A stretch of DNA of 63,127 bases, filler included, from Chrysochromulina tobinii (lineage: Eukaryota): assembly GCA_001275005.1 (NCBI GenBank). It is 8 parts of 8 records of this genome, joined end to end, with 100 filler letters (N's around TTAATTAATTAA, not from the genome) between each part and the next. Parts side by side here need not be neighbours in the genome. Positions count along the whole stretch, not along the records: positions 2,833 to 19,804 come from JWZX01000918.1; 7 more parts are not named here. The stretch is one strand, 5' to 3'. Below, piece by piece: positions 9,509-40,240 of this stretch (within the stretch, counting starts at the first letter, position 1; every line of letters begins with the position of its first letter). The notes under the pieces were generated by a model, which ran no database searches, was not told the origin of the DNA, and saw only the letters and a list, made by a program, of their open reading frames with translations. The translations under genes were made by a program, and so were the position numbers.

Positions 9509-11014
9509 TCATTCTCTCTGCGCGACGGCGAGGCATACGTCGAGATGCGAATTGATCGCACTCAGAGGGATGCTTGCGCCACACACGGGGCAGGTCGCCA
9601 GGGAGCAGGAGCGTTCCGCGGCGCGCTGCTGCGCTTCCACCCGTGGTGGCGACGGCGCGGCTGCAGCTCGATCTGATCCCGCCGTGGGAGTGACGAAACC
9701 CAAAGGGGGCGTGGGAGTGACGAAACCCAAAGGGGGCGTGGGAGTGACGAAACCCAAAGGGGGCGTGGGAGTGACGAAACCCAAAGGGGCCGCCTTGCGC
9801 ACGAACTGTAGAAGTGAGGGCTGGCCTGGCTCAGCGCGCTTGCGCTTTGCGGCCGCACCCGTCGCCGAACCCGATGCCCCGCTGTCGGCATACACGAGCA
9901 CGAGCACCAGACGGCTCACCCGAAAGGGCTGGGTGCCGACTGCAGCCTCGAAAGTGCGCGTGGCGAGCGCCGCGATGGCGTGCGCATCCTCATTCTTCGC
10001 GGGCGGCCAAGCCACCTGAGCCTGACGGACTTCCTTCGCGCTCGGGAAGAGTTTCCATTTGACCACGAGCTGCGCGGGCCGGCGCGGGCCGTACGTGGCC
10101 ACGTCATCCTCCGCGCGGGAGAGGAGCATGGGCGCAAGATGCACGAATCCATGATGCACGTGCTCCAGCCTGGTGGCGGGCTCGTGATCAGTCGGCCGTA
10201 CGGAGCACTCCACAGAGAGGCTACGCGGCAGCTGGAATCGACTTACGGTGCTGCCGTCGCACGCCGTGCTGAGCAACGAGCCGAGCGCCTCCGCCTCGGG
10301 CGCGCCGAGAGCGGCGGCAGCGCCGTGCGCCTCCTCCTCAAGCCATGCGCGCGCCTGAGCGAGCGTCGCCGCCTCGCCGAGGACGTGCTGCAAGCCGAGG
10401 CGCGTCGAAGGACGGAGCCCGTGCAGCCCGGCACCGCAGATCTTGTCGACTCTTGCCGCGTCGAGCAGTGCCCTCTCCGGTGCGGCGCCCACGCAGCAGT
10501 ACATGCCGTTGGGCTTGGCGTGCTTCGTCGCGAGCATAGAGAGCAGCTTTGTCCGAGCGAGGCCGACAGAGCAGCGCAGCCCAGTCGCTTGCAGCACCGC
10601 TGCTCGAAGCTCGTGAGCCCACGCCGTGGCAGCCTCCACTGAGGCCAACCGCTCCGGTAGCTGGACGAAAAAATCATCAAAGGAAGAACGCTCGACTTGA
10701 CGGCCCAGCCAGCTGGTGGCTGGCAGGCCGGGCGGGTCGAGTGAATGCATGACGCACGTGAGCACCGCCTGCCCAGCGCTTCGGTACCGCTGCATGGCAT
10801 TGACGCCATTGTCCCCGCGAACTAGGACCAGGTCAGGGCAAAGGCGCTTTCCCTCCGCCACCGAGATCCTGTTGTACAACCCAAATGCGCGCGCCTCGTA
10901 GTTGACTGCTGCGATCTCCATATTCTGTTGGACGCCAAGCGGACGGCCACGCACTGAAAGCCGCACCTCTTCGACTTGCGCGAAGAAGCAATCGACGTCC
11001 AGGTGGGCGATCAT
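9509..11014 (-). CDS. Y-family translesion DNA polymerase, Pol iota-like, with C-terminal UBZ4-type zinc finger
   Basis: Motifs MIAHLDVDCFFAQVE, PLGVQQ, VNYEAR, CPDLVLVRG, VERSSFDDFFV and CSVGLARTKLLSMLATKHAKPNG; C-terminal CPVCGASIPLSAINSHLDVCL. Confidence 0.9.
   Translation of the reverse strand: MIAHLDVDCFFAQVEEVRLSVRGRPLGVQQNMEIAAVNYEARAFGLYNRISVAEGKRLCPDLVLVRGDNGVNAMQRYRSAGQAVLTCVMHSLDPPGLPATSWLGRQVERSSFDDFFVQLPERLASVEAATAWAHELRAAVLQATGLRCSVGLARTKLLSMLATKHAKPNGMYCCVGAAPERALLDAARVDKICGAGLHGLRPSTRLGLQHVLGEAATLAQARAWLEEEAHGAAAALGAPEAEALGSLLSTACDGSTVSRFQLPRSLSVECSVRPTDHEPATRLEHVHHGFVHLAPMLLSRAEDDVATYGPRRPAQLVVKWKLFPSAKEVRQAQVAWPPAKNEDAHAIAALATRTFEAAVGTQPFRVSRLVLVLVYADSGASGSATGAAAKRKRAEPGQPSLLQFVRKAAPLGFVTPTPPLGFVTPTPPLGFVTPTPPLGFVTPTAGSDRAAAAPSPPRVEAQQRAAERSCSLATCPVCGASIPLSAINSHLDVCLAVAQRE
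9683..9790. repeat. 27-bp tandem repeat x4 encoding PPLGFVTPT within the polymerase linker
   Basis: GTGGGAGTGACGAAACCCAAAGGGGGC repeated. Confidence 0.9.
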
Positions 11015-14390: not shown

Positions 14391-16505
14391 CTACTTGCGA
14401 CGGAAGAGCGAGCCGAGGACGAAGGCAGTGCCCGCAACGGCGCCCCCAACGATTGCGGCGGCGAGCGTGGTCTTGGGCACGCCTGTCTGCGCTGACGCGT
14501 CCTCGAGCAGCTCCAGTGCACGGCCCACCCAGGGGCTTGGAGCGCCCAGGGGCTGGGCGGCGGTTGGAGCGCCCAGGGGCTGGGCGGCGGCTCGCGGAAG
14601 GATCAAGCGTCCTTCGTCTCTCTTGTCTCTTGTCTCTTCTCGTCTTGTCTCTTCTCGTCTCTTCTCTTCATTCACGGATGCAACAGCCATCTTGGCGGCA
14701 GGTAGATCTGGTACCGCCTCCGCTACCGCCTCCGCCTCCGCCACCGCCTCCGCCACCGCCTCCGCCTCCGCCTTGACATCAGCCTCAGTGTCGGCCTTCG
14801 CCTTCTCCGCGGCTGACTCGGCTCCAGTCACCGCCACCGCTTTATCCTTGGGCTCGGCCTCCGCTTTAGCCTTGGCCTCGGCCTCCGCTTTCGCCTTGGC
14901 CTCGGCCTCCGCCTTAGCCCGCGCCGGCATTGGAGGAGGCACGCTAGGCCTGCGTGGGGGCGGCAGGGCTGTCCCTGGGCTAGAGGCTCGGGCCGTTTGG
15001 GGCATTGGAGGAGGCACGCTTGGCCTGCGCTTTGGCGTCGCAGGCTCCTCTGGCCCCGATGTACCTGTGGCGCCGTGGTGAGCACTTGCATGCGTTGGCG
15101 TCGCAGCAGGCTCCTCTGGCCCCGTGGCTCCGGCGATCCTGCCCGTAGCGATGCTCTCCTTGGGTGGCTCGCCAGCGGCAGCTGCCGCCACGTTGACGGG
15201 GACGGCCGCCGCGCTCACGGCCGCCCCGCTGCCCACGACGGCGCTCACGGGCGCCCCACTGCCCACGACGGCGCTCACGGGTGCCCCGCTGCCCACGACG
15301 GCGCTCACGGGAGCCCCACTGCCCACGACGGCGCCACTGGGAGCCCCACTGCCCACGACGGCGCTCACGGGAGCCCCACTGCCCACGACGGCGCCACTGG
15401 GAGCCCCACCGCCTACGTGAGCTCCGCGCTGGGAGATCTGGACTCTGGGCGCAGTCCCTGGCATCTGCTCGACCAGGGCTGGGGCCGCGGTGGCGCCCTT
15501 AGCCGCCATGTCCGCTGCCTGCTCCCGCAGGCACAAGTCGCAGCCGCACACGAAGCCGTAGTTCTCACGCAGGGCCGCCCGCCGCTGCAGATAGGTCCAC
15601 TCGCGCGGCATCGCGAGGTACGCGTGCGTGAGCTTCTCGCCCGGCAGGAGGTCGCGCTTGGCAAAGGCGCGCACGAGGCCCTGCCCGGTACTCGGATCGT
15701 GGCCGCGCTTGGCGAGGATCTTCGCCTCGCTCACAAAGACGATCGTCGGGTCACACGCGTGGTTGGCCCGCGCCGCGAACGCGTACAAGGCGTTCGCGTG
15801 GAAGGGACTCGTCTTCTCAGCGCCATTGTCAAATAGGAACTGGTTGCAATGGAAGCGCAGCAGCACGGCGCGCACCTCCTCCACACGAGCGGCGCGCGCC
15901 ACGGCGGTGGCAAACGGCAAGCACGCTGGGAACGGTGCATTCGACCCCCCGACGAGGCGCTCAGCGCCCTCACGCACGTGGCCGATCTCTTCTGAGACGA
16001 TGCCCAGGTCGTTGAGCTGCTTGAGCGCCGTCGCCCACGGCCCATTGGCCACGTCTCCCAAGGCCCGCGCGCTCAGCTCCTCGTAGGCGCGCCAGCGCGT
16101 CCCATGGTGCTGTTCGACGGATTGCTCGTCCCGGCGCACCACGACGAAGGGCGGCTCCTCAAAGAGAGGGCAGCCGCGTGGCACATGCTCGCTCACGATG
16201 AGGCCGCGCCCGCACGTGCCCTGCGCGTCCTCGGCGGTCACTGCGGGGTGGCAGACCGCGCCCTCGAGGCCTCGCGGCAGGAGCACAAACTCCAGTGCGA
16301 GCGCTGACTCATGCACCAGCTCCGAAGTCTCGCCAAAGTCTCGCAAAGCAGCAGTCTCGCCAATGTCGACACGCCACAAGCCCGTTGTGGGATCGAAGGT
16401 GCGCAGCACGCAGAGCGCGCCGTCAAACTTCGCGCCCTTGGCGCGGATCCTGCAAACCGAGCCCTCGTGAATGCGGGTCGCGCTCGTGCGGCTCTTCAGC
16501 AGCAT
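14391..16505 (-). CDS. SMYD-like SET-domain methyltransferase with repetitive C-terminal region and terminal hydrophobic segment
   Basis: Motifs GRGLIVSEHVPRG, ANHACDPT, AKRDLLPGEKLTHAY and RRAALRENYGFVCGCDLC; 30-bp SAVVGSGAPV repeats at about 15200-15410. ATG at 16505 is the likely start. Confidence 0.8.
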   Translation of the reverse strand: MLLKSRTSATRIHEGSVCRIRAKGAKFDGALCVLRTFDPTTGLWRVDIGETAALRDFGETSELVHESALALEFVLLPRGLEGAVCHPAVTAEDAQGTCGRGLIVSEHVPRGCPLFEEPPFVVVRRDEQSVEQHHGTRWRAYEELSARALGDVANGPWATALKQLNDLGIVSEEIGHVREGAERLVGGSNAPFPACLPFATAVARAARVEEVRAVLLRFHCNQFLFDNGAEKTSPFHANALYAFAARANHACDPTIVFVSEAKILAKRGHDPSTGQGLVRAFAKRDLLPGEKLTHAYLAMPREWTYLQRRAALRENYGFVCGCDLCLREQAADMAAKGATAAPALVEQMPGTAPRVQISQRGAHVGGGAPSGAVVGSGAPVSAVVGSGAPSGAVVGSGAPVSAVVGSGAPVSAVVGSGAPVSAVVGSGAAVSAAAVPVNVAAAAAGEPPKESIATGRIAGATGPEEPAATPTHASAHHGATGTSGPEEPATPKRRPSVPPPMPQTARASSPGTALPPPRRPSVPPPMPARAKAEAEAKAKAEAEAKAKAEAEPKDKAVAVTGAESAAEKAKADTEADVKAEAEAVAEAVAEAEAVAEAVPDLPAAKMAVASVNEEKRREETRREETRDKRDEGRLILPRAAAQPLGAPTAAQPLGAPSPWVGRALELLEDASAQTGVPKTTLAAAIVGGAVAGTAFVLGSLFRRK

Positions 16506-16891
16506 CGTGGTCGCGAACCGTAGTGAGTGGCGGCAGCAGCTAAACGTGAATGCGTTCACGTTCACGTTAAATTGCCATCTCGGCAAGACGCACGCCCTTC
16601 TAAACCGCCCCCGCGCGGTACCCGCCATGGTGTGAATGTATGTGTGTGAATGTGAATGTGTGTCTGTGTGATTTCTAACACAGCCACAGGTCCCGTGGAG
16701 ACACAGACGTGAATGCGCAAGCGCAGTTCGTCCTAACCCCACTCCCCCCTCCCCCCATCCCCCACCTGATTGCCTTCACAATCCCGCCCGGTAGTATAGG
16801 GAAGTTTGAAGTTTTCGCGACGGCGTTTACCGGTACCGACAACAAAATGGGCTAACCCGCTTGCGTTGCCGTCCTGCTCTCCCCATCGCTC

Positions 16892-19804
16892 ATGGCATGG
16901 CACCGTCGTTTCGCCAAGTCTCCTTGCTCTCGGCCACATCGGCCTCGAGAGAAGCAGGGCGTGCGCGGTGCCCACACTCTCCTTGCATGGTGCACCATCC
17001 TGCCCTGCACCGAGACCAGCGACGTTCCCGGGTTGAACCGAGGTCTGCAGCTCGCGGTGCCCAGCCACCGCCGTGAGCTGCAGACCGCGGTGAGCGCCAG
17101 CGCTGACCTGACCAGCGCACTCGCCAACACCGCCGTCAGCCGCATCGTCCTTGCCTCCGGCACCTACAACCTCATCGCCGAGCTCAGCATCACCAGGAGC
17201 GTCATCCTTGAGGCGGCGGCGGGAGCCACGGTCACCCTGAACGCACAAGCGAGCTCCTCGAGTCAGCGCCGAGTGCTGAACATCAACCCGGGTTCGTCGG
17301 GCGTCGTGCAACTGAACGGACTTCGCATCACGGGAGGCCACATCAACAACTCAGTGCGCGCTCAAGTTCCCATCGCTCCGATGGGAGACTCACGTTTTGC
17401 GTTTTGTTCGCAGGGAGGAGGTGTCTACGTCTCTTCCGGCACGGTCACGATAACGTCTTCCTCGATCTACGGGAATATAGCTTCCAATGTGCGCGCTCAT
17501 CTTCATAAGTTCCCAATGCCCCCACGGGAGACTCATGTTTGGCTCGTTGTTTGCAGGGCGGTGGTGTCTTTGTCACATCCAGCACAGTCTCAATCGTCAA
17601 CTCCCAAGTTTATTACAATCAAGCTACTAGTTTTGTCGTGCGTGCTCATGCTCAAAAGTTCCCATCGCCCCGATGGGAACAATTCTGACGCGCTTGATTT
17701 GAGTCTCGCTCGCTCTACTGCGGCCAACTCTTCGATCAACTACAGTCTGTACGCGCCGCAGAGACTTGAATGTTTCCCATCGCCCCGATGGGAAAACTGC
17801 TGACATGCTTGCCCCAACTCACGCTTGCACAACTGCAAACGATGCTTTGGTCGACAACAGGGGGTGCGTGCCACAGAGACCTTGAAAACTTCCCATCGCC
17901 CCAATGGGAATCCCTTGCTGACATGTTCAACTTGACACTCGCCTTTCAACTGGGTGGGATCCATCTTTTGTTCTACCAGGGATATGTACGTACCTGCAAA
18001 ACCCCATCGTGCTCGTGTTCAAAAGTTCCCATGGAAACTAACGTTTTGCTCGTTGTTTGTATAGGGCGGCGGTGTCTACGTCTCTTCCGGCACAGTCTCG
18101 ATAACGTCTTCCTCGATCACCGGCAACACAGCTTCTGGTTCATTTTTTGTGCGTGCTTAAGTGCAAAACTTCCCATTGCCCCAATGGGAAAGTTGCTGAC
18201 GTGCTTGCCCCGACTCACGCTTGCTCAACTGCGGCCGACGCTTCCGTCAACTACAGGGGGTGCGTACTGCAGAGACCTTGAAAGGTTCCCATTGGGCCGA
18301 TGGGAAAATGCTCACGCGCTTGCTTTGATTCTCGCTTGCACAACTGTGGCCGACGCTTCGGTCAACTTCAGGGGGTGCGTGCTGCATTGACGTTCAAACG
18401 TTCCCATGGCCCCGAAGGGAATATGGCTGACGTGCCCAAATCGACTCTCATCTTTCAATTCGGATCGATATTTGGTCCTATCAGGGAGATGTATGTGCCA
18501 GCCACGCCTGCAAACTTCCCATCGCCTCGATGGGAGACTTACGTTTGGATCCTTGTTTGCAGGGAGGCGGTATTCGTGTCGATTCTGGCACGGTCACGAT
18601 CACCGCGTCCTCTATCACCGGGAACACAGCAGTGGGCAGAGTGCGTGCTCATCTTCGAAAGTTTCCCATCGCCCCCACGGGAGACTCATGTTTGGTTCGT
18701 TGTTTGCAGGGCGCTGGTGTCTTTGTCACGTCCGGCACAGTCTCAATCGTCAACTCCCAAGTTTATTCCAATCAAGTTGATAATATCTTCGTGCGTGCTC
18801 ATGCTCAAAAGTTCCCATCGCCCTGATAGGAAAGTTGCTGACACGCTTTGCCTCGACTCTCGCTTGCACTACTGCGGCCGACTCTTCGATCAACTACAGT
18901 CTGTACGTGCCGCAGAGACCTGAAGTTTTCCCATCGCCTCGATAGGAAAATGGCTGACGCGCTTGCTTCGATTCGCTCGCACAACTGCGGCGGACGCTCC
19001 GGTCAACTATAGTGTGCCTCAAACCCATGTGTACGTGCCGCAGAGACCTGAAATTTTCCCATCGCCCTCAAGGGGTGCTAATGTTTTTGCTCGTGGTTTG
19101 CAGGGACCCAATGTCTATGTCTCCTCGGCGGGCACCGTCTGCACCTGGGCAATGGCCCTCACCAACGAGGTCGCAGGCTCAGTCTCGACTTGCACCGCAC
19201 CACCGCCCCCGGCGCTGCCACCGCCACCGCCATCGCCACCCCCTTTGCCACCGCCACCCTCGCCGCCGCCCTCACCTCCATCACCCTCGCCACCGCCGCC
19301 TTCGCCACCGCCTCCCTCACCGCCACCACCTTTGCCACCACCCTCGCCATCACCCTCGCCACCGCCGCCCCCTACACCATCACCATTACCATCACCATCA
19401 CCTCCTCCTTTGCCGCCTTCGCCGTCGTGTCCTCCGCGATCTCCGCCTCCGCCGTCGCCGCGGCCACCGTTGTACTGGTGTGACGACACGTGCACGATCA
19501 CAGTGCAAGGCGAGATCGCGCCGGAGACAATCGTCCTGCACAACAACGATGTGTGCAACGATGGAGGTGAGGGTTCCGAGTTTTCAGGTTGCCGCATCGG
19601 CACCGACTGTACTGACTGCGGTCAACGATTAGTCATGCCACCTTTGCCGCCGCCACCGTTCCCTCCGCCACCGCCTCCGTCACGCCCTTCCTGCCCTTCT
19701 TTACCGCTACCGCCCAGCCCGCCGCCGCCCTCGCCCTCCCCTCCACCGTCCTCGCCCTCGCCGCCGCCGCCCTCGCCATCACCACCACCGCCATCGCCCT
19801 CGCC
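16892..19804 (+). CDS. Multi-exon Pmp-like right-handed beta-helix surface protein with microexons, Pro-rich stalk and Cys-rich module (3'-partial)
   Basis: Exons: 16892-17353, 17414-17488, 17557-17637, 17746-17748, 17861-17863, 17980-17985, 18065-18148, 18257-18259, 18372-18374, 18485-18490, 18563-18640, 18710-18790, 18900-18902, 19013-19030, 19104-gap. All 14 introns are GT...AG and phase 0. The product is GGGVYVSSGTVTITSSSIYGN-type repeats followed by PPPSP tracts and CNDGGEGSEFSGCRIGTDCTDCG. Confidence 0.8.
17354..19103 (+). repeat. Family of 14 homologous introns sharing a TTCCCATCGCCCCGATGGGAA-type hairpin
   Basis: The hairpin or a degenerate version recurs in each intron (e.g. 17368-17386, about 17659, 17774, 17890, 18170, 18516); donors are GTGCGC/GTGCGT/GTACGC/GTACGT/GTATGT. 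Confidence 0.85.
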
Positions 19805-20561
19805 NNNNNNNNNNNNNNNNNNNNNNNNNNNNNNNNNNNNNNNNNNNNTTAATTAATTAANNNNNNNNNNNNNNNNNNNNNNNNNNNNNNNNNNNNNNNN
19901 NNNNTATTTACACTGTCTTCGGGTGTACTGCCATCGGGTGTACACTGTCATCGGGAGATCGGGTGTACGACGAACTTCGAATACAAGTAAACTAAAGTGG
20001 TAACGTAACGCTCCGGTGCACATAGTGTGTTTGTCAGCTTTTGGCTCTCCACAACTTAGAATTCTTTGGCAACCGCGCCCACAGGCGGCCGGGCCCTCAC
20101 ACTCGAAGTTTTCGACTCAAGGTCAAGCGGCTTCGACGTGGAATGTGTTAATGATAGCGCCAGACGTGCACCATCCTCATGCACGCTCGGGCGCTGCCTT
20201 CAGCCGCGCGCCGCTACCGTTCATCGCAGGGGCTACCGGTAGGTGTGAAACCGCAACGCAGCAAACTACCGGGACTTCGCGTCGCGCGCGCGCCGCGCGA
20301 GGCGGCGGCGGCGAGCGGCGGCGACGGGGTGGGGCTGGGGGGCGGGAGCGTGAGTTTGTGTGTTTGCCTGCCTGCGTTTACGTGTTGACCGGTTTGTCCC
20401 AAGCGCTGTGGTGGGAAGGGAGAGGGCGGGTATGACTTGACTTGACTTGACGTTTCATGCTCGAACCGGTACAAGCTCGCATTCTCCCATCCTCGGCGGC
20501 TAAACCCGGCGAGCAACTCGGTGTCCTTCCGGCCGCCGCCAGAAGCGCATTCAGGAGCAAG

Positions 20562-20774
20562 ATGTGCTTCAAGACGACCTGTGTCGTGTGCAAGCTTCCG
20601 ACCTGGACTGGGTGTGGTCAACACGTTGCGTCGGCACTCAGAGGCATTCCCGAGGAGAAACGGTGCCCCGTGTGGAAGACTGGCGCGGGCTCGCACAAGC
20701 TGGCCGAGGGTGAGACCACCGAAGCGCAGGCTGGAGCCGCTTCAAAGCAGGCTCAGCAGTGCGACATTTCATAG
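20562..20774 (+). CDS. Small Cys-rich conserved-type protein, copy 1 (ends in CaaX-like CDIS)
   Basis: MCFKTTCVVCKLPTWTGCGQHVASALRGIPEEKRCP matches the small C-x4-CxxC-x3-TWxGCGxH protein pattern seen in fungi and protists. Confidence 0.7.
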   Translation: MCFKTTCVVCKLPTWTGCGQHVASALRGIPEEKRCPVWKTGAGSHKLAEGETTEAQAGAASKQAQQCDIS

Positions 20775-21647
20775 AGTGGCGCAACCGTCCTGCACGACCG
20801 TGCAGACATTCCTGCAGACCGTCCCGCACGGCCGTTCTGCACGACCGTCCTCGCCGTGGTTCCGTCGAAATTATCGAGCACGCACATCACACACGAGGAA
20901 ACGAGCAGTAGCACAGCGCCGAAAGGTGGTGACTGCTGGCTGAGGGATTATGTGCCAAGCTGCCACGGCTTTCCATGTACAAGCGTCGGTTATTTACACT
21001 GTCTTCGGGTGTACTGCCATCGGGTGTACACTGTCATCGGGAGATCGGGTGTACGACGAACTTCGAATACAAGTAAACTAAAGTGGTAACGTAACGCTCC
21101 GGTGCACATAGTGTGTTTGTCAGCTTTTGGCTCTCCACAACTTAGAATTCTTTGGCAACCGCGCCCACAGGCGGCCGGGCCCTCACACTCGAAGTTTTCG
21201 ACTCAAGGTCAAGCGGCTTCGACGTGGAATGTGTTAATGATAGCGCCAGACGTGCACCATCCTCATGCACGCTCGGGCGCTGCCTTCAGCCGCGCGCCGC
21301 TACCGTTCATCGCAGGGGCTACCGGTAGGTGTGAAACCGCAACGCAGCAAACTACCGGGACTTCGCGTCGCGCGCGCGCCGCGCGAGGCGGCGGCGGCGA
21401 GCGGCGGCGACGGGGTGGGGCTGGGGGGCGGGAGCGTGAGTTTGTGTGTTTGCCTGCCTGCGTTTACGTGTTGACCGGTTTGTCCCAAGCGCTGTGGTGG
21501 GAAGGGAGAGGGCGGGTATGACTTGACTTGACTTGACGTTTCATGCTCGAACCGGTACAAGCTCGCATTCTCCCATCCTCGGCGGCTAAACCCGGCGAGC
21601 AACTCGGTGTCCTTCCGGCCGCCGCCAGAAGCGCATTCAGGAGCAAG

Positions 21648-21881
21648 ATGTGCTTCAAGACGACCTGTGTCGTGTGCAAGCTTCCGACCTGGACTGGGTG
21701 TGGTGTACACGTTGCGTCGGCACTCAGAGGCATCCCCGAGGAGAATCGGTGCCCCGTGTGGAAGACTGGCGCGGGCTCGCACAAGCTGGCCGAGGGTGAG
21801 ACCACCGAAGCGCAGGCTGGAGCCGCTGCAAAGCAGGCTCAGGAGTGCGACGTATCATCACAGAGGTTACGAAGGCTTTGA
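21648..21881 (+). CDS. Small Cys-rich conserved-type protein, copy 2 (C-terminally extended)
   Basis: Paralog of 20562-20774 with substitutions and the tail ECDVSSQRLRRL*. Confidence 0.65.
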   Translation: MCFKTTCVVCKLPTWTGCGVHVASALRGIPEENRCPVWKTGAGSHKLAEGETTEAQAGAAAKQAQECDVSSQRLRRL

Positions 21882-22291
21882 ACCTCTGTGGTTCCATAGA
21901 GTGGCGCAACCCTGCTCGACCGCGCAGACTGTCCTACACGGCCGTTCTGCACGACTGTCCTCACGATGAGCACGACGCCCGATGAGCACCACGTTCCGAC
22001 GACAGTCTCAAGCACGCTCGGCACGCACGATGACGCGAGCAGTAGCACAGCGCCGAGAGGCGGTGACTGCTGGCTGATGGATATGCGGTGCCCAGCTGTG
22101 CGACACGGCTGTCTGACACTCTGACTTCATCTTCAAAATACTGTGTTCACAGTTCAGTCAAGTCGCTAGTACGTAGTACGCACTGTGCGCTGTCGAAGGT
22201 ACTGTTTATCCCTAATACTTTACGCTCGTGCACAGCTTTTGTCTGTCCACAGCTTAAAACCGGCAACCGCGCCCACAGTGGCGGCGGGCCC

Positions 22292-25200
22292 TCACTCCAG
22301 TTTGACAGCGCCCATGAAAGCGCCGTTCGTGCCGTCTGCCGCCGCGCCGAGACGGCGCGTGGACTGTTCGCGCAGCTCCAGCGGCTGCTCGGCGGCGTCC
22401 TCTCGCTCAAAGCGCGCGAGCAGCCGCCAGTCGTACGGCCGGTGCACGTTGAAGTCGCTCTCCCATCCGAGGAATCCGTGGGTGTGCAGCTGGCCGTCCT
22501 CCATGTACGCTGCCGCGAACTGGGGCCCGAGGAACTGCTCAAGTGCCTGCGCGACCGGATCGCGCGCGGGCGCGGGCGCGGGCGCGGGCGCCATCTTGGG
22601 CGCGCGGCTGGTCACGGCGGCCGTGGTGGAGGAAGACGTGTCGCCCAGGCGCGGTGCCTTTGAAGGTCGGCGTCCGCCTTTCGACGATTGGGCGGGAGCT
22701 GCGCTGCCGCCATCGGCGGCCTCGTTCACAGCGGCCGCGTCCTCCTCTTCCCAGTGCGCGACCAGGAGAGCGTGCTCGGCGCGCCGACGCTCCAGGTCCG
22801 AGACGGCGTTGAGCAGCGCGTTCATCCGTGCCTTGAAGACGGCCTCCGACAAGAAAGTTGGCCCAACGCTCCCTGCGGGTGCGGGCGGCAGTTTCTTGCC
22901 CGAGGGCGCTGGCACGGGCAGCACATCGAGTACGTCGTACCCGCGAAACCAATCGGGTGGCGGCTCGGGCGCGTCGTAGCCGGCCCCGAGCGCGGCCGCG
23001 CTCGCCGGCGAAGCTTCGCGGAAACCTCCCGCACCGGGAGGCACCGCGGGGGCCTCTGCGGGCGGCAGCAGCGGCGGCAGCGGACGACGGCCGCCGAGGC
23101 GACACCCAAAATGGAGCTCGGGATCGTCGGCGATCTCAAAGTAAGCTCGGTAGCCGTGCTTGTACACGCCGAGAAGCAGCATCGCATCGTCGCGCGTCGA
23201 CCACGGGACGGTGTCTTCGCGTCCCACGCCTCCCGGCACTGTCGGGGCTCGGAAGGTGAGCAGTGGCGTGCGCTCGCGCTCGACGGCATCGGCGAGACGC
23301 TTGAGGATGATGAGCCGCGCCATGAAGGTGGCGCCGAGCTTGTGCACACGCTCCGCGTACTCGTGCCCGCCCGCGCTGGCGGAGACGTACGGCTCGAGCT
23401 CGTGCGTCTGCTCCTTGGTCAGGAGCGGCGCATCGCAGCCGAGCTGGGAGAGGAGCTCACGCGCTTTGGCAATCCCCTCGATCTCCTGCTCCCCGAGGGG
23501 AGGGCCACCCGCCGGGATGCCGAGACGGGCATCGCCCTTGTCACCGCCGCCCACTCCGGCGATGGGCACGCCCACGCAGAGGCAGACGAAGGCGACGCCG
23601 AAGCGAGCCACCTCGACGTCGTCGCGGAGCTTGGTCGCGCCGCCCGCGTACTCCTTGATGCGCGCCCACCGGCCGAAACCATAGGAGAGCATCGCGCGCT
23701 CCACGTTCATGCGCTCCGTCTTGCTCCACACGTGCGCGAGTGATCGGCGTGCCTGGCGGCGTGCCTCCTCCTCGTCCTTGGAGCCCTTGTCCTTGATGCC
23801 GCGCCGCTTGACGCCGCCCTCCTCGAGGTGCTCCTCGATCTCAAACTCGCTCGCCATGCCGAGCCGTGCCACCTGCTTCGACTTGCGCTTGACGTAGTAC
23901 TCGGCGAGCGCCTCGTCCTTCGCTTGCAGCTCGGGCAAGATCTTGGTCCAGAACTCAGGGTCGTCCATGTCGACGTCGTGCTCGTCGGATACAAAGGCCG
24001 CCTTCGAGAAGACCGAGCCGGAGCCCGTGTTCTGATCGTACGACACCTTGGTCGACTGCGCGAGGATCTCGTCAATGTCGGCCTCGTTGAACTTACGTGA
24101 CTGCGAGTCGTCCTCTTCGGACATGAAGATGTTGTGCGCGCCGCGCTTGAGCATCGCGTCCACCTCGGCGCGATCCTGCGGCGGCCCGCGCTGCTGCGAC
24201 GCCGTCACCGACAGTCCATCGGAGGCGCGGTCGGCATTCATGGCGCGCTCGAGGCCAAGCTTGCGGTTGGCGCGCTCGACCATCTCGGACTCGTACGTGT
24301 TCTTGGTGACGAACCGGAAGACCTTGACGCGCTTCGACTGGCCGATGCGATGCGAGCGCGCCATGGCCTGCACGTCGTTCTGCGGGTTCCAGTCGGAGTC
24401 GAAGATGATGCACGTGTCGGCCGCGATCAGGTTGATACCGAGCCCCCCCGCGCGCGTCGAGAGGAGGAAGGCGAACGTGTCTGAGCCCGGCTTGCAGAAG
24501 CGATCGATGGCGGCCTGTCGTAGGTCGCCGCGCACAGTGCCGTCGAGCCGCTCATGCGAGTAGCGGCGCTCGCGAAGGTAGTCCGAGAGTAGGTCGAGTA
24601 CGCGCACCATCTGCGAGAAGATGAGCACACGGTGCCCTTCGGCCTTGAGCTTGGGCAGCAGCTTGTCGAGCAGCACGCACTTGCCACTCGCCTTGAGCAA
24701 CGAGTCGAGGTAGCTCGGCCTCGGGCCGGCGCTCGGAACGGCGAGCGTCGTCGACGAGCCCGCCGCCACCGACGGCGGCACGCCCTCGACCTCGTCGGTG
24801 CCGTTGAGCTCCCTCTCTCGCTGCTCTATTCCCTGGATCAGGTACGGGTGGTTGCACACCTTGCGCAGCTCCATCTGCAGGTTGATGAGGGAGGGCATCG
24901 CCGCGCTCTGCGCGCCGCCGAGGAGGATCTCGCGGTTGCCCTCGAGCACCGCGCGGTAGCAGCGCTTCTGGAATAAGGTCATCTCGACCCAGATGATCGT
25001 CTCCTCGAGAGGGACGAGGCTCTTCTCGACGTCACCCTTTTGGCGGCGCAGCAGGTACGGCCGGATCTTCTCGTTGAGCGCGTCCACCTGCGCGCTGTCC
25101 GTGAGCGTGCCGAACTCGGCGAGGAACTCGTCCAGCGAGGGGAAGAGCTGCCTGTCGAGAAAGTAAAGGAGAGCCCACAGCTCGGTCGTGTTGTTCTGGA

Positions 25201-26812
25201 GCGGCGTGCCCGAGAGCAGGTGCATGTGCTCCATCGAGATCGTGCGCAGATCGGCCGCGAGTGCCGAGTCCTTGTTCTTCAGACGGTGCGCCTCGTCGAT
25301 GACCACGTACCGCCACGGGATCTTTTTGAACACGTGCAGGTCCTGCTTGATCACCTCGTACGAGGTGATGAGGACGTGGAACTTGTACAAGAGCGGCGCC
25401 TCGCTGCCCGGTTTGGGCGGGGGCACGACGTTGGGGGCGAAGTGCCACTCAACCTCGCGGATGAGCTCACGGGACTCATTCGAGCCGTGGTACAAGATCG
25501 TGTTCATCTCGGTCCACTCCTCAAACTCGCGAAGCCAGTGGGCGAGCGTGGAGAGGGGCGCGAGCACTAGAAAGGGGCCGCGGATGCCCTCCTCCTTCCA
25601 AATATGGTGCAGCGTCGAGACGGACTGGACAGTCTTGCCGAGACCCATCTCATCCGCGAGCATGACCGAGCGCCGATTGTACCACGAGAAGAGCAGCCAG
25701 TTGAGCCCCTCGAGTTGATACGGGCGGAGCGTGTGCCCGGCTTTGAAGGAGGGCGACGCGGTCAGCTTCTTGAAGGCAGTCTTGAGGGGCCGGAAGCCGC
25801 CAGACGCAGCCATCTTCTTCTCGTGTTCGGGCGGCGCCTGCTCGCGCTGGTGGTACAGCCGGATCGCCTGCTGCTCCGCGAGGAGCGTGCGGCAGCTCTC
25901 CCAAGTGCACGCCGCGTACGGCAGCGATCTCCACTTGACGAGATAGCGAGGCGGCAGGTCCTCGCTGTGGGGTGGCACCGCCTCACTCGCCGCCTGGCAC
26001 ACGATGCGCTCGACGACCTCAAAGTCTGGATTGTACGGCTCCTCATCGGTACGCGCGCCACGCCCGCCCTCGTCGCCCTCGTCGCCCAGGTCCCAGGTGT
26101 TGTCGGCGCCGTTGCCCGTCTCTCGCTCCGCCTGCGCCTTGAGGAATCGCAACACGCGCTGCTTGTTACTGAGCTCAGCCTCGAGCTCGCGCCGCGGCAC
26201 CCACTGGCAGTGGATGTGGGCGAGGCCCTTCCACTTGACGAGCAGCTCGGGCTCGCCCGTCTCCTCCGGCAGGCGGATCAGGTAGATTTTCTCCAACGGC
26301 CCCGGGAGCAGCCCCGGCCGCCACGCGCCCGCGACGGGCAGCGCGGGAGGCACGCCGCCTGCGGGCTTGGGCACCCACGACCAGTCGTCCTCGTCGTCGA
26401 TCCAAGCGCCCTCAGACTCGTCGAGGCCCTCGAAGTTGGCGTGCATGCTGCGAACGCGGGTTGGGACGCAGCAGCAAAGGGCTCAATAGGGGGGAATCGC
26501 GGAGCGCTCATGGCCAAGTGTGCAGCCGGGCAGAGGCAGCTGCTGGTGGAACAGGTACGAGTGCGCTGCTCGCACGCGGCGTGCCAACACGCACCGGTGC
26601 CGCTCCACGTACACCACGACGCCCAAGTAGGGCACCAGCCCGGAGCGGCCCTCGTCGTACAGGACCTGAATGCATTGACCGACTGCCTCTAGGGCGGTCT
26701 TGCCCTTGAGATTCATGGGGCGCGTCGGTCTCGCACGCGACGGACCGCCACCAGTCACCTCGGGCGCCGGCGCTGAGGACGGTGCCGGCTGCTTGCCGGC
26801 TCCTCGAGGCAT
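22292..26812 (-). CDS. CHD-family chromatin remodeler (Tudor-like, tandem chromodomains, SNF2 ATPase, SANT/SLIDE-like); exons 26812-26595, 26447-22292
   Basis: Chromodomains LLVKWKGLAHIHCQW and YLVKWRSLPYAACTWE; helicase motifs LADEMGLGKT, IDEAHRLKN, LSGTPLQNN, LLSTRAGGLGINL and QAMARSHRIGQ; WSTRDDAMLLLGVYKHGY. An in-frame GTGCGT...CAG intron lies at 26594..26448. Confidence 0.93.
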
Positions 26813-28309: not shown

Positions 28310-28570
28310 AATTCCGAAATTCCGGGATTTCAATTCCAAGTCCGCCCCTGCACTGTCGCCTCACCGGGAATTTCGGAATCCTGGGTTTGCAGAGAGGGCT
28401 GGGGGCCGGAAGTGGAATCGGGAATTTCGGAATCCTGGGTTTGCAAGGAGCGCTGAGGGCCGGCGAAGTGGAATCGGGAATTTCGGAATCCTGGGTTTGC
28501 AAGGAGCCCTGGGGGCCGGAAGTGGAATCGGGAATTTCGGAATCCTGGGTTTGCAAAGAGGGCTGGGGGC
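28310..28570. repeat. Minisatellite, about 57-60-bp unit
   Basis: CGGGAATTTCGGAATCCTGGGTTTGCA occurs four times, with degenerate copies to the left. Confidence 0.9.
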
Positions 28571-29081
28571 CGCGTCGTACCCGCCGCGTTGCGTTTACTA
28601 ACCATAAATCGAAATTAACCCCTAAACCCGCCGCGTGCGCGACTTGGTTCGGTTCCGTTCTAAGCGCTGCGCGCCGCGCTCCGCGCTCCCAGCAACCCGC
28701 CGCGTCGTACCCGCAGATGTGCGCGTCGCTTCGTCGATTCGGGACGACGAACGAGGTGTCGCTGATCTTCATTGCGTGCGTGTCGTCGAGCGACTCGCCG
28801 TAGACTTGTACACCTTTGACCATGCAGAGAAAGTCGCCGCGCGTCACATCGTCGCGTCCTTGGCCGAGGAAGAGCCCGACTTCATTGAGCACGCGACCCT
28901 TCTTATCTTTGAGGCCCGTGCGCGCGATGCATAGCCCGGAGATCATTCCCTTGCCCAACGGGCCCGGAATTGTAGTCGTTGGGTGCTCGTCGAGGCTCCG
29001 AGGAGGAGGCTTCCAGTCTGGCGGTTGCCAGCGGTCGACGACGCCAGCACCCGCAGCCGCACGCTTGATGGGTCGCATCAT
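28571..29081 (-). pseudogene. Degenerate SET-like ORF truncated by the minisatellite
   Basis: GLCIARTG...VGLFLG...TRGDFLCMVKG...HAMKI...LWLVNATRRVRRG follows SET motif order but lacks the NH motif and the GEEL..DY end. Confidence 0.35.
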
Positions 29082-30799: not shown

Positions 30800-31320
30800 C
30801 GGTCTGGCCAACCATTGCGGTTGTCCCGTTGGTCAAGATGCATCGCACTGGCCAACCCCTTCGGTTGGGCCCCTTGATCGAAAACGCACAGCGCTGGCCA
30901 ACCACTTCGGTTGTGCCCTTGATCGAAAACGCACCGCGTCTGGCCAACCGCTTCGGTTGTCCCTGATCAGTCTAAGCCAACCCCCCTCGGTTGTGCCTCT
31001 GGTCAAGATGCATCGCGTTGGCCAGCCCCCCTTCGGTTGTGCCCTCGATCGAAAGTGCACAGCGTTGGCCAACCCCCTTCGGTTGTGCCCTCGATCAAAA
31101 GTGCACCGCGTCCGGCCGACTCAGCGACCATACTCGCACCTTGCCAACCATCTCGGTTGTGCTTGCCAACCATTTCGGTTGTGCTGCCAGCTATTGCAGC
31201 TGTGCTTGCCAGCTATTACAGCTGTGCCCCCATCTTTTGGGGACCGTTGCGATCGGCCTGGCCGATCGGCCTGGCCCGTCTTCGGATTCACCTGCCAACC
31301 ATCTCGGTTGTGCTTCGTTC
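30800..31320. repeat. Degenerate minisatellite (GCCAACCnnTTCGGTTGT core, about 20-50-bp spacing)
   Basis: About ten CCAACC...CGGTTGT motifs with related linkers. Confidence 0.8.
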
Positions 31321-36472: not shown

Positions 36473-39202
36473 ATGCTTGCCGCTCGACTTGCACGCTGCG
36501 CCCACGTGTTTCGCATCGGCGCCAGCATTCATGCGCCAAAGCTACAGTTTGCCGGCACGATCGTCAAGATGGGTCTGGTCACGAGCTTTGTGGCAGTGTG
36601 CAACGCCACATCAAAGTGCATGGATACAACGCAAGTGGACGAGGTGGACATCGTGATGCGTGAGCTGCTTGGCGCTGCTTCTGCAGCACGAGCTGATGCT
36701 GAGGTACAGCAAGGTGCTGTCTCTGGTGGCCCGCCTTCTGACTCTGAGAGTTCATCCGAAGACGAATACGAGGGCGACTTTGATGACAGCCCTGGAGGTG
36801 ATGAGCCGTTCACGACGCCAGTGTGGGGCCTGCGCCCCGGCCCTGCAAAGCACGACCTGCTTGGTGCGGGCACGATCATTGCCATCCATGACAGCGAGCA
36901 GACACTCAGCGGAATCACAGTCGCATTCAGTGCTCAGAATGCAGGAAAGGTGCTTTTCAAGTGGAGCGCCAAGGAGGGTCGCCAGTGGAAGGAGAAGCAG
37001 CGCTGGGTTTTCGCTGATGCATGCGAGCAGGAGCAGTCGGCCCAGGCTGCAAGCGGCTCAGCCAATGCCTCAGCAGACGAGGATGATCACCATCCCACAG
37101 CCTTCGATGAAATGCTGCAGGGAGCGGCTCAGCCCCACGCCTTCACCCAGGGACTCACCGAGCCTGAGCTGGCTGCGCATGAACGGAAGCGAAAGGTGGC
37201 TCGCCTCAAAGAGGCACCCGTGCGTGGGCGCAACAAGCTTGGACGCAAGACAAAAGAGCCCGTCATTGCCCCGCTCATCCGTGTGGAGGCATTTCCAAAT
37301 CAGAGCCTTGCTGTTGAGAACGGCAAGCTGCGCTGCAAGGCCTGCAAGTACGATTGCTCTCTTCGCCTGAGCTCTCTGAAGGCACATCTCAGCTCTGTTG
37401 CGCACAAGGAGAAGCTCGAGAAGTACTTCGACTCTTTGGTCAATGATGATGACCTCGCTGGGCTAATCACTCGCTTCTATGAAAAAAACCCGGGCACCGA
37501 AGGCGCTACGGTAGCTACGGACACTCACGTTTACCGCTGGCATGTGATGGAGAGTTTGATGTATGCAGGAATACCTTATGCCAAAGCAGACATGATTCGC
37601 CCTCTTCTTGAGCGTGCGAGCCATCCGTTGGCGGATTCGGCACACCTGGGACGAATATACATACCACTAATCCAAGAGCGTGAGCTCAAGCGGCTTCGCA
37701 AGGAACTGCTCAAGCAGTGGTTTGCGCTGATTTTTGATGGCACGACTCGACTTGGGGAGGCGATCAACATGGTCACCCGCAGCATCACCGACGAGTTTCA
37801 TATTTGCATGCGCTTGGTCGCCTTTAAAACACTCAAGGTGCATGCGGATGGGCCAGGACTCTATCGCCTCATTCTGAAGACGCTGCAGATGGACCTCGGC
37901 TTCAACCTCGATGATTGCGTTGCCTGGGGACGCGACAGTTGTGCCACCAACGGTGTCGCCGTTGAGAACCTGATGCCACATTCAACCAACGCGGTCAGCA
38001 TGCTATGCTTTGCGCACACGCTGCACAATAGTGGGAAGCATCTCAACCTGTCTGTCCTGGACGAGTTCATGACACCATGGCTACAATTGGTGGCCCAGCC
38101 TGGCGCAGCAAAGCTGCGATGGCAAGCTATTCTCGGCGGCTCCATGGCGAGCTACAGCAAGGTGCGCTGGTGGAGCCGTTGGGACATCATGAATGAGATC
38201 GCCACTAACTTTGGCGCCATTCCGCAGTTCATTGCCAGCCTTGATGCCGATGGCATTGGTGATGCGACTACACAAAAGATGCTCGACGTTGTTACCAATC
38301 GGCGCTCGACGCTTGAGCTTGAACTCGCTGCTGTGATGAGCTGCGAACGTCTATGCAAAGCGACGTACCGCCTCGAAGGTGACCGGCTTGAGCTTCTCCT
38401 GGTGCATCAGACCATCGAGGGACTGCGAGCATTTGGAGCTACTTTGGGCCACAATGCCAGCGATCTGCCAAGTGTGGCCGCACTGCTGCGACAGCGCCAT
38501 ATAATTGCCAAAGGAACTGAGGTCTATGAATGGTTCGAGGCGCCTCATAACCAATGGTTTCACGGCAAAGTCACCCGCATGCCAACTATGCAAAAGCCCA
38601 CCTATGAGGTCTCGTACTCCGATGGAACCAAAATTGAGAACTCCGAGTTGGAGCTGCGAAATTGGATTGAAGTTCGCAACCTTCCAGGGTGGCAGACAGC
38701 TGTGGATTCCATCAAGGAGGCGTACACATATATCGAAAATCGAATAACGGACAACTGCCAAGCCCCATATCACTGCTCAGGTCCATACGAGGTGTGCCGC
38801 GTCAGCCAGCTGTTTGACCCCTCATTTGCCACTGTCCAACTGTCGCCTCAGTTCGTCGATGAGCTTTGCGGCACAGTCCCTGCTCTCAAAGACAAGGCTG
38901 CCATGCTGAAGGCAGAGTTGGAGACGTATCGCACAGCTGCGCGAGCTGCGGCGCCGATGGATTACATGGATGTGAAAACATTCACCGAGGGTGTGCTCAG
39001 CTTTTGGCGCATGCAGGGCACTAAGATGCCAGAGTGGCGCAAGGCAGCTAAGATTGTATTTACAATCCCACCTACCTCGGCAGCCAGCGAGCGAGTCTTC
39101 TCGCTTCTTGAGGCTATGTTCGGCGCGGAACACGATGCGGCACTCTCGGATCTCATCCAGGGTTCACTCATGCTGCGCTACAATGACCGCAAGGTGGGCT
39201 GA
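36473..39202 (+). mobile_element. hAT-superfamily DDE transposase (intact ORF) with N-terminal Zn finger
   Basis: Motifs CKACK...LKAHLSSVAH, LIFDGTT, RDSCATN, CFAHTLH, VRWWSRW and FW...W.KAAKIVFTIPPTSAASERVFS; TGTYGCRACA-like motifs near 36168 and 39385-39438 could be subterminal repeats. Confidence 0.88.
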
Positions 39203-39283
39203 GCCTCATGAGCCCGCCCTCCCAATTGAGCCCTGTGTGTGAGAAGCGAGACTGTAGACGAGTGGCTTGGCGCGGCCTAGTGG

Positions 39284-39322
<39 letters not shown>

Positions 39323-39509
39323 CATGGCAGGAAATGGCAGGCAGGCCGGTGCAGGAATAGTGCGGGAACACAAATGTCATGTCATGTTGCGACACTTGCC
39401 TATGAATGTGTGTGTAAATGTCTATGTTGTGTCGCAACATATGCCTAAGATATTATGATTTAAGACATAGACATTTGCCTAAAAAATTTCGACATCTACG
39501 CAAAGGGCA

Positions 39510-40240
39510 AAGCGGGATGAACTTGTCTTCATACGCGCTCGAGCCATCGCAATTCTGTCTGGCGAGAAGTGTGCCAGCATGTTGTGGACCATGTCGTTCG
39601 CCGCTGCGGTCGTCGAGGCAGCGAGGTAGGCATCGGCACGCGTCTGGTGGTACTTGATGAGGCTTTTGCGTCGGTGTCCACCCTCGACAAAAGTAACCTT
39701 GCCTCCGTCGGGTAGGACGAGGTGACGCTCATCGTTAAAGTACGACCGGATGCCATCGCGCTCGAATGCAGCGTTGCAAGAGAACAGGTCTGTGTTGAGC
39801 CCGGGCACCACGAGCACATCGGTGAGGGTCATCACAGTCGCACAGTTCTCGTGCTTGTTCGTCTTGCGTCTGTAGCGGGCGTTCACGGTGACGTCCATCT
39901 CACCCACGTGCGTAGCACGGATGACGTGACCGTTAGCAACACGGACATCGCGCCCGCGTGGGTTGGTGGCCGTGATGCGAGAGAGCTTAAGAGCATTGTC
40001 CACCATATGGCTAGTGGCGCCGCTGTCGATGAGCATCTCTGCGACTCCATCGTGGTGGCCGTGCATCGGGGTCATCAAGCCAGATGCGATCCTATCACCG
40101 AGGAAGGCAAATTCCGCCGGCATGATGGAAGTGTCGACACACGAGAAGGTAAAGCACGGCTCCGCTTCGATGTGCTGGTTGAGCAGGGAACCTGCCACGG
40201 CGCCGATGGCGGCAGCGGTGGCTAGCGACGTCGGGCCCAA
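39510..40240 (-). mobile_element. Ty1/copia LTR-retrotransposon fragment (protease and pre-integrase region)
   Basis: MLIDSGATSHM, VRVANG, LTDVLVVPGLNTDLFS and VHNMLAHFS; the ORF breaks off at the hAT flank. Confidence 0.8.

What the first reader, a model, noticed from the sequence alone, without database searches (positions are those of the whole stretch)
17414..19103. Homologous introns as substrates for DNA-level exon shuffling or introner-like spread
Seen: intron-exon cassettes recur as higher-order units. The block 17489-17790 (short intron, VFVTS.TVSIVNSQVY exon, long intron, TCT) reappears at 18641-18945, and the 'GGG microexon, then GGAxAT microexon' block occurs twice. Exon 3' ends (ASN, ATSFV, ASGSFF, AVGR, VDNIF) diverge more than the flanking intron sequence. 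Known: repeat-exon shuffling is described for Ectocarpus LRR/TPR genes, and introner elements create homologous intron families in algae. Inference: unequal recombination through conserved introns rearranges the cassettes, with diversifying selection on loop residues.
Basis: partly seen in the sequence, partly recalled or inferred. Interest (0 to 1): 0.7.

Follow-up and report, generated by a model that had tools for sequence, protein, structure and literature searches.

The report
Single-codon exon cassettes build receptor loops
In a family of algal genes that likely encode cell-surface receptors, the variable loops are built from chains of tiny exons, most only one codon long, which RNA shows are spliced in and which are likely reshuffled in the DNA, mostly at a short palindrome carried by nearly every intron.

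Summary
The stretch is the repeat region of a beta-helix gene (closest named relatives: Chrysochromulina). It has 14 related phase-0 introns, five repeat exons and eight microexons of 3-18 nt. One RNA contig with no mismatches removes seven introns and includes all five microexons in its span. In 63 related locus clusters, 263 of 266 short exons are multiples of three and 189 are single codons. The recurring unit is 3' half-intron + exon + next 5' half-intron. Linkage is absent across the intronic palindrome (z -0.7, -0.8) but present across microexons (z 7.2, 9.8), so shuffling likely centres there; some breakpoints lie elsewhere. Microexon codons differ at 46% of bases against 11% in the next intron half; exon-end codons give dN/dS about 2-3.5. 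Paralogs end in a membrane helix plus kinase or ADP-ribosyltransferase domain. Introner spread is not supported. Verdict: an Ectocarpus-like exon-shuffled candidate receptor family with a codon-cassette layer not found in my literature searches. Recombinase, somatic shuffling and ligand are untested.

The parts
16892..17353 (+). First coding exon (start ATG provisional; relatives have longer N-termini): N-cap and first coils of the beta-helix
   Evidence: homologs; RNA contigs of family members cover it
17354..17413 (+). Intron 1, short class (60 nt), palindrome at 17367
   Evidence: seen unspliced in one RNA contig; removal not shown
17414..17488 (+). Repeat exon 1 (75 nt, one beta-helix coil, ends ...IASN)
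17489..17556 (+). Intron 2, short class (68 nt), palindrome at 17510
17557..17637 (+). Repeat exon 2 (81 nt, ends ...ATSFV)
17638..17745 (+). Intron 3, long class (108 nt), palindrome at 17659
17746..17748 (+). Single-codon microexon (Ser), predicted
   Evidence: not covered by RNA
17749..17860 (+). Intron 4, long class (112 nt), palindrome at 17774
17861..17863 (+). Single-codon microexon (Gly), predicted
   Evidence: not covered by RNA
17864..17979 (+). Intron 5, second long class (116 nt), palindrome at 17890
17980..17985 (+). Two-codon microexon (Gly-Tyr), predicted
   Evidence: not covered by RNA
17986..18064 (+). Intron 6, short class (79 nt), composite 5' part and collapsed palindrome (possible deletion scar)
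   Evidence: sequence; no palindrome hit
18065..18148 (+). Repeat exon 3 (84 nt, ends ...ASGSFF)
   Evidence: its last 19 nt are in the spliced RNA contig
18149..18256 (+). Intron 7, long class (108 nt), palindrome at 18170
   Evidence: removed in RNA contig
18257..18259 (+). Single-codon microexon (Gly)
   Evidence: included in RNA contig
18260..18371 (+). Intron 8, long class (112 nt), palindrome at 18286
   Evidence: removed in RNA contig
18372..18374 (+). Single-codon microexon (Gly)
   Evidence: included in RNA contig
18375..18484 (+). Intron 9, second long class (110 nt), palindrome at 18401
   Evidence: removed in RNA contig
18485..18490 (+). Two-codon microexon (Gly-Asp)
   Evidence: included in RNA contig
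18491..18562 (+). Intron 10, short class (72 nt), palindrome at 18516
   Evidence: removed in RNA contig
18563..18640 (+). Repeat exon 4 (78 nt, ends ...AVGR)
   Evidence: in RNA contig
18641..18709 (+). Intron 11, short class (69 nt), palindrome at 18663
   Evidence: GT..AG joint in RNA, unspliced in a DNA contig 18583-18762
18710..18790 (+). Repeat exon 5 (81 nt, ends ...VDNIF)
   Evidence: in RNA contig
18791..18899 (+). Intron 12, long class (109 nt), palindrome at 18812
   Evidence: removed in RNA contig
18900..18902 (+). Single-codon microexon (Ser)
   Evidence: included in RNA contig
18903..19012 (+). Intron 13, long class (110 nt), palindrome at 18928
   Evidence: removed in RNA contig
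19013..19030 (+). 18-nt microexon (CASNPC)
   Evidence: included in RNA contig
19031..19103 (+). Intron 14, short class (73 nt), palindrome at 19056
   Evidence: seen unspliced in one RNA contig; removal not anchored
19104..19804 (+). Last exon: C-cap, Pro/Ser-rich stalk, Cys-rich module; runs into an assembly gap

Best explanation
This gene and its relatives encode beta-helix proteins, likely cell-surface receptors, whose loops are spliced together from one-to-few-codon exons that are likely reshuffled as DNA cassettes, mostly at a palindrome shared by nearly all the introns, and likely under diversifying selection. Mechanism: each coil is one phase-0 exon; between coils sit 0-8 microexons, each adding a residue or two to the loop. 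The heritable unit is 3' half-intron + exon + next 5' half-intron, so each cassette carries its own splice signals and stays in frame wherever it lands (anatomy shown). The 20-nt palindrome is the only sequence common to all intron classes, and homology-driven recombination (unequal crossover, conversion, or break repair) most likely resolves there, with a minority of crossovers elsewhere (pattern shown, enzymology inferred). The long intron before each microexon likely provides a distant branch point so that the downstream intron is removed first (inferred). Selection for new binding specificities would fix changes in microexon codons and at coil positions 5, 7, 24 and 25 (excess change shown, cause inferred).
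For: Splicing: one 214-nt RNA contig, 0 mismatches, removes introns 7-13 and contains microexons of 3, 3, 6, 3 and 18 nt; the DNA run laid beside it shows none of these joints among the rows listed. Family: 263 of 266 short exons and 175 of 177 repeat-size exons are 3n with frame-blind splice-site calls; 189 are 3 nt, using 31 codons. Cassette anatomy: 253 of 266 microexons follow a long intron and 256 of 266 are followed by one donor class; 171 and 167 of 177 repeat exons take the other classes. Linkage: similarity of the 3' half correlates with the next 5' half across a microexon (rho 0.45) but not with its own 5' half (rho -0.02 to -0.03); within one subtype, site linkage across the palindrome z -0.7/-0.8, across the microexon z 7.2/9.8, repeated in two separate locus groups. 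The two palindrome arms assort independently at all 9 pairs, and flanking variants switch association between positions 8 and 14. 118 of 258 shared high-identity segments start within 16 nt upstream of a palindrome centre, about 31 expected. Near-identical loci differ in cassette content (L047/L037, L020/L029, L028/L007, L024/L034). Selection: in 27 independent pairs chosen on the upstream half-intron only, microexons differ at 37 of 81 bases against 11% in the unselected next half-intron, 19 amino-acid and 0 synonymous differences; repeat-exon positions 24 and 25 give dN/dS 2.1-3.5, framework 0.09-0.11. Protein: Beta_helix and Chlam_PMP Pfam hits in relatives, beta-helix fold matches, membrane helix followed by kinase (L042) or ADP-ribosyltransferase (L057) in the last exon.
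Against: RNA support for this gene is one contig at depth 2.3 from one run; three microexons and seven introns are not covered, and unspliced pieces were also seen. For repeat-exon cassettes, linkage across the whole exon was not significant (z 0.5-0.7). At least two breakpoints (L047/L037, L139/L025) lie in the 3' half-intron, not the palindrome. Alignments naturally end at a conserved motif, which inflates the breakpoint count. The window gene has the same order in six other assemblies of what appears to be one genome, and L060/L034 keep the same order over six cassettes, so shuffling is not shown within a culture. Cassettes are related, so counts are not independent; positions 5 and 7 were picked from the same data; recombination disturbs dN/dS. 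The window gene's own C-terminus is cut by a gap, so its membrane anchor is not shown.
Confidence: 0.72

Rival explanations
1. The palindrome is the site of a dedicated site-specific recombinase, so cassettes are excised and inserted as in an integron, possibly within cell lineages.
For: Two 7-bp inverted arms around a 7-nt spacer, all in direct orientation; core positions mostly 90-98% conserved in 475 introns; arms conserved in sequence with no compensatory pairs and no G-U excess in pairs 2-9 (136 G-U, 139 A-C); linkage lost across it even within one intron subtype; several shared segments run exactly from one palindrome to the next.
Against: Breakpoints outside the palindrome. No recombinase family among 26 of the 44 long window ORFs scanned or 65 of 115 ORFs listed from 29 long loci; the whole genome was not available. 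No rearranged form among six other assemblies.
Confidence: 0.13
2. The palindrome is kept for splicing (an RNA hairpin or protein site between donor and branch point), and each half-intron co-evolves with the exon it serves; arrays grow by ordinary tandem duplication and diversity comes mainly from alternative splicing, as in schistosome micro-exon genes.
For: The intact palindrome folds as a hairpin in most window introns; half-intron class tracks exon type; all exons are symmetric, so skipping would keep frame; partly spliced RNA exists.
Against: No covariation or wobble bias. Linkage difference persists within one subtype. Near-identical cassettes sit in different genes with unrelated neighbours. 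The one full RNA contig includes every microexon. A splicing role can coexist with shuffling but does not explain the mosaics.
Confidence: 0.12
3. The introns are introner elements that inserted independently into coding sequence.
For: Hundreds of short, similar introns with an internal inverted repeat.
Against: All are phase 0 and at coil or loop boundaries. In the 63-kb window they occur only in this gene. Of 143 loci fetched, 128 have two or more donor-linked palindromes and fall in this family; of the 15 set aside, 3 are family members and 12 have no intron context. The two halves of one intron have independent histories.
Confidence: 0.03

Closest known systems
Brown algal ROCO-LRR and NB-ARC-TPR exon shuffling (PMC3341825, PMC11378527; passages read)
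   Same: One repeat per same-phase exon, intra- and intergenic recombination, positive selection on ligand-facing residues, signalling domain attached, proposed immune receptors.
   Different: Here the repeat is a beta-helix coil in phase 0; loops are built from separate single-codon exons; introns are short, homologous and share a palindrome at the cassette junction ('microexon' and 'palindrom' have 0 hits in PMC11378527). No inverted intronic spare exons were noticed here.
Schistosoma micro-exon genes, MEGs (PMC4350168; passages read)
   Same: Many very small symmetric exons in a fast-evolving family of exposed proteins.
   Different: MEG variation is described as alternative splicing and most of the coding region is microexons; here microexons fill loops of a folded repeat scaffold, are mostly 3 nt, and variation is seen in the DNA. 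Skipping was not observed.
Plant microexons (PMC8831610, PMC4674806; passages read)
   Same: 1-15 nt exons, downstream intron removed first, upstream intron detained, putative branch point far upstream (44 nt for the 1-nt APC11 exon).
   Different: Those are described as conserved exons in conserved genes; here they are chained, hypervariable and carried on related cassettes.
Introner elements (recalled; one search listing only)
   Same: Families of similar short spliceosomal introns in algae.
   Different: Introners insert into unrelated genes in any phase; these are confined to one family and one phase in the sample.
Integron gene cassettes and lamprey VLR assembly (recalled)
   Same: Modular cassettes joined at a shared site or short homology to vary a binding surface.
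   Different: No recombinase, donor reservoir or somatic assembly shown here.
Pmp-like / right-handed beta-helix proteins (Pfam PF13229, PF02415; Rhombotarget A, Pel9A folds)
   Same: Repeat consensus and predicted fold.
   Different: Eukaryotic, with Pro-rich stalk, membrane helix and cytosolic enzyme domains in paralogs instead of an autotransporter barrel.

Membership tests
Ectocarpus-type repeat-exon shuffling receptors | One repeat per exon, all introns in one phase | tested here: met
   14 of 14 introns phase 0; 175 of 177 repeat-size exons 3n
Ectocarpus-type repeat-exon shuffling receptors | Intra- and intergenic recombination of repeat exons | tested here: met
   mosaic loci and shared cassettes
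Ectocarpus-type repeat-exon shuffling receptors | Diversifying selection on a few repeat positions | tested here: met
   dN/dS 2.1-3.8 at positions 5, 7, 24, 25; framework 0.1 (pairwise counting, recombination not modelled)
Ectocarpus-type repeat-exon shuffling receptors | LRR or TPR repeats with ROCO or NB-ARC domain | tested here: not met
   beta-helix repeats with kinase or ADP-ribosyltransferase
Schistosome-type micro-exon genes | Runs of very small symmetric exons | tested here: met
   263 of 266 short exons 3n; up to 8 between coils; spliced
Schistosome-type micro-exon genes | Variation by exon skipping | tested here: inconclusive
   one contig, all five microexons included; contigs drop rare forms
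Schistosome-type micro-exon genes | Most of the coding region made of microexons | tested here: not met
   microexons give 45 nt of this gene's coding sequence
Introner elements | Copies in unrelated genes and in all phases | tested here: not met
Site-specific cassette systems (integron-like) | Dyad site with exchange confined to the spacer | tested here: inconclusive
   switch between positions 8 and 14, independent arms, but off-site breakpoints
Site-specific cassette systems (integron-like) | Cognate recombinase | tested here: inconclusive
   none in nearby ORFs scanned; genome not held
Diversity-generating retroelements | Adenine-specific change copied from a template repeat, with a reverse transcriptase | tested here: not met
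   29 of 63 differences involve A; G/T is the commonest type (26); no reverse transcriptase in ORFs scanned
Right-handed beta-helix | Three-strand parallel coils | tested here: met
   model of relative P0074, pLDDT 74, best matches Rhombotarget A E 3.6e-6 and Pel9A E 3.1e-4; the window's own spliced protein was not folded

The most novel reading that the evidence does not exclude
A unicellular alga runs a dedicated, integron-like recombination system on codon-sized exon cassettes: an enzyme cuts in the spacer of the intronic palindrome and swaps single-codon and coil cassettes, writing new receptor loops residue by residue within cell lineages, an anticipatory immune repertoire against viruses or prey.
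Probability: 0.13. Interest if true: 0.96.

Novelty: new variant of a known kind. Interest (0 to 1): 0.82.

Why it matters
It shows a gene architecture in which loop length and sequence are encoded one codon per exon and varied by moving self-contained cassettes, joining two diversification routes known separately (repeat-exon shuffling, microexon genes). The shared palindrome gives a defined junction, which makes the open question raised for brown algae (targeted or somatic shuffling in non-animal receptors) directly testable in a culturable unicell. Chains of 3-nt exons are also an extreme case for spliceosome mechanism. Public gene models of relatives read through these introns, so the family is misannotated.

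Tried and rejected
Whole-genome search: no genome held. Viral contigs: no match to the palindrome. Earlier findings: nothing. Pfam on single exons of the window gene: nothing significant. Stop-codon test: 0 of 189 single-codon exons are stops against 15.6 expected, but I do not count it as proof of coding, because TAG would also be avoided as a competing acceptor (only 6 of 183 are NAG). RNA-structure signature of the palindrome: none. DGR-like mutation: rejected. 'Long intron + 3 nt + repeat exon' as a genomic form: 0 cases against 125 followed by a donor, so such RNA contigs are read as partly spliced paralog transcripts. Assembly chimerism as source of mosaics: unlikely for the window gene, identical over the array in six other assemblies and ordered the same in RNA; not excluded for single-sample short contigs. 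Nearby recombinase: none found. Literature: searches returned 0 papers (Chrysochromulina + polymorphic outer membrane; microexon + haptophyte; Chrysochromulina + intron + beta-helix); searches listed none describing this family; in the C. tobin genome paper PMC4580454 (term search only) 'polymorphic', 'adhesin' and 'outer membrane' have 0 hits; its supplements were not read. The potato invertase mini-exon paper was not held, so its spacing rule is recalled only. The automatic parser misses some introns (e.g. window intron 6), leaving intervals over 110 nt that were left out of the counts (32 of 475 unique intervals fall outside the two size classes).

Full report
Observation. 17489-17790 and 18641-18945 are 87.6% identical; the exon's last five codons are 53% identical against 94% for its first 22 codons and 87-90% for the two introns. 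The GGG then GGAxAT pattern occurs twice, but its introns are only 56-74% identical, no more than random pairs of the same class (medians 72% and 78%), so it is reuse of cassette classes, not a recent block duplication. A 20-nt palindrome is found in 13 of the 14 introns and nowhere else in the window (0.04 matches expected).

Gene model. Reading from the ATG at 16892, fourteen GT-AG introns are all phase 0 and enclose five repeat exons (75-84 nt) and eight microexons (3, 3, 6, 3, 3, 6, 3, 18 nt); the joined frame is open into a proline-rich stalk that ends at an assembly gap. Named homologs of exon 1 are from Chrysochromulina (131 hits, 120 listed). Relatives score as Beta_helix and Chlam_PMP. 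A model of a relative without translated introns (P0074, 23-sequence alignment, pLDDT 74) has three strands per repeat, with the long variable loops between the last strand of one coil and the first of the next; its best matches are beta-helices. That positions 5 and 7 and these loops line one binding groove is inferred from general knowledge of beta-helices (recalled), not measured.

The microexons are spliced. In run X13 one 214-nt contig with no mismatches runs from the end of the 18065-18148 exon through 12 letters equal to the three predicted microexons, the 18563-18640 and 18710-18790 exons, the 3-nt exon and the 18-nt exon: seven introns removed, five of five microexons in that span included. 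The DNA run X1 shows none of these joints among the rows listed and covers intron 11 unspliced. This is one contig at depth 2.3; runs X11 and X12 gave only unspliced or single-exon pieces. Paralog RNA contigs carry the end of a long intron, three bases and then a repeat exon; that arrangement occurs 0 times in the genomic loci, against 125 cases with a donor after the three bases. I read these as intermediates in which the downstream intron went first, as described for plant microexons (PMC8831610 and PMC4674806, passages). Long introns carry a branch-like CTRAY mostly 55-59 nt from the acceptor (183 hits in that bin; motif in 234 of 281), short ones a CTYAY at 20-24 nt (138 hits; 150 of 194); the role of these motifs is inferred.

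The family. 128 loci plus the window had two or more donor-linked palindromes and formed 63 clusters (two clusters overlap others). Splice sites were called by weight matrices without using frame. Among 475 unique intervals, 266 are 30 nt or less: 263 are multiples of three, 189 are 3 nt (31 codons) and 55 are 6 nt; 175 of 177 repeat-size exons are multiples of three; 0 to 8 microexons lie between coils; Gly, Tyr, Asn and Ser dominate. Of the 15 loci set aside, 3 are family members and 12 lack any intron context. Four short clusters show only microexon chains. So the introns were found only in this family, in one phase: introner spread is not supported.

The unit of shuffling. Intron length follows the downstream exon (253 of 266 microexons after a long intron; 171 of 177 repeat exons after a short one) and donor class follows the upstream exon (256 of 266; 167 of 177). 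For microexon cassettes, 3' half similarity predicts the next 5' half (rho 0.45) but not the intron's own 5' half 20 nt away (rho about -0.03). Within one subtype, site linkage is at null level across the palindrome and raised across the microexon (z -0.7/-0.8 against 7.2/9.8), and this repeats in two separate groups of loci (z 3.1-3.7). For repeat-exon cassettes linkage across the whole exon is not significant, so exchanges inside coils are probably common too. The palindrome arms assort independently at all nine pairs, with no compensatory change and no G-U bias in pairs 2-9; variants upstream go with the donor class and position 14 with the acceptor class. Shared high-identity segments start at palindromes in 118 of 258 cases, about 31 expected, though conserved motifs attract alignment ends. 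Near-identical loci differ in cassettes: L047 lacks two cassettes of L037; L020 and L029 share a run but differ upstream; L028 and L007 share their 5' flank and first cassettes, then diverge. Against a strict site-specific model, the L047/L037 and L139/L025 junctions lie in the 3' half-intron. The window's array is identical in six other assemblies, and L060/L034 keep their order while changing microexon residues: ongoing or somatic shuffling is not shown.

Selection. In 27 independent pairs chosen only for 95% or more identity of the upstream half-intron, the single codon differs at 37 of 81 bases, against 11% in the unselected next half-intron; 19 pairs change the amino acid, none is synonymous. 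All 13 single-base differences in a wider set of 45 pairs are at codon positions 1 or 2, and 20 pairs differ at two or three bases, which suggests en-bloc replacement as well as point change. The third base may be constrained by the splice site. Changes are not adenine-specific.

Likely function. In L042 and L057 the last exon continues from the C-cap through a proline-rich stalk and a membrane helix into a protein kinase or an ADP-ribosyltransferase domain; kinase and PARP hits also lie downstream in L001, L018 and L075, where the link was not checked. A variable ectodomain on a signalling or enzyme tail suggests receptors for viruses, bacteria or prey; this is inference. The window gene's own tail is hidden by the gap.

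Comparison and novelty. It works like the Ectocarpus LRR/TPR system (PMC3341825, PMC11378527, passages) but is not a member: other repeat, other phase, other signalling domains. It shares symmetric microexons with schistosome MEGs (PMC4350168, passages) but skipping was not seen. My searches found no description of this family or of chained single-codon cassettes; the library lacks most subscription papers and I read no supplements. Public models of relatives translate the introns.

Verdict. Shown: gene anatomy, splicing of five microexons, family-wide single-codon exons, cassette structure, loss of linkage at the palindrome, mosaic loci, excess amino-acid change. Inferred: recombination route, branch-point role, receptor function. 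Untested: recombinase, somatic change, alternative splicing, ligand. New variant of a known kind; interest 0.82.

Noticed in passing
window 17986-18064; L037 intron before its Tyr microexon: Two introns carry what look like deletion scars ending in the palindrome spacer: window intron 6 joins a left arm to a second donor-class segment and has a collapsed palindrome; the L037 intron lacks the left arm. Compatible with breaks in the spacer (read by eye).
   Followed up: partly
L002 4240-5600; L062 1500-2531 (oriented coordinates); P0017, P0023, P0066, P0067, P0046: Runs of about five repeats without introns, some ending in one retained family intron: possible cDNA-mediated intron loss. The P0017 group keeps repeat order but varies in its loops.
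   Followed up: partly
L037, L071, L021, L007, L028 upstream ORFs; P0052, P0058, P0083, P0111, P0101: The 5' part of many family genes is in frame with fragments of acetyl-CoA carboxylase, M16 peptidase, beta-tubulin, or with C-type lectin, LamG or RCC1 domains: captured gene pieces or modular N-termini.
   Followed up: no
L058, L034: Two arrays in tandem in L058, each with its own cap exon; L034 has about 25 introns and up to six or more microexons in a row.
   Followed up: no
window 19104-19804 against L063: The proline-rich stalk differs between the window/L004 and L063/L055 after about 75 residues: allele or assembly difference.
   Followed up: no
window 19905-22260: About 1.1-kb tandem duplication beside the gap (19905-20204 equals 20991-21290), each copy with a small Cys-rich ORF near 20563 and 21649.
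   Followed up: no
window 50176-52272: An unrelated beta-helix ORF without the palindromic introns.
   Followed up: yes
window 36473-40123: hAT dimerisation domain ORF and a Pol-type beta-barrel ORF: transposon remnants.
   Followed up: no
window 14391-16628 (-), 9509-11014 (-), 22292-26446 (-): Neighbours: SET-domain protein, Y-family (IMS) polymerase, CHD-type remodeller; no link to the array shown.
   Followed up: no
window 28365-28572 and 30802-31227: Short tandem arrays of 54-nt and 46-nt units.
   Followed up: no
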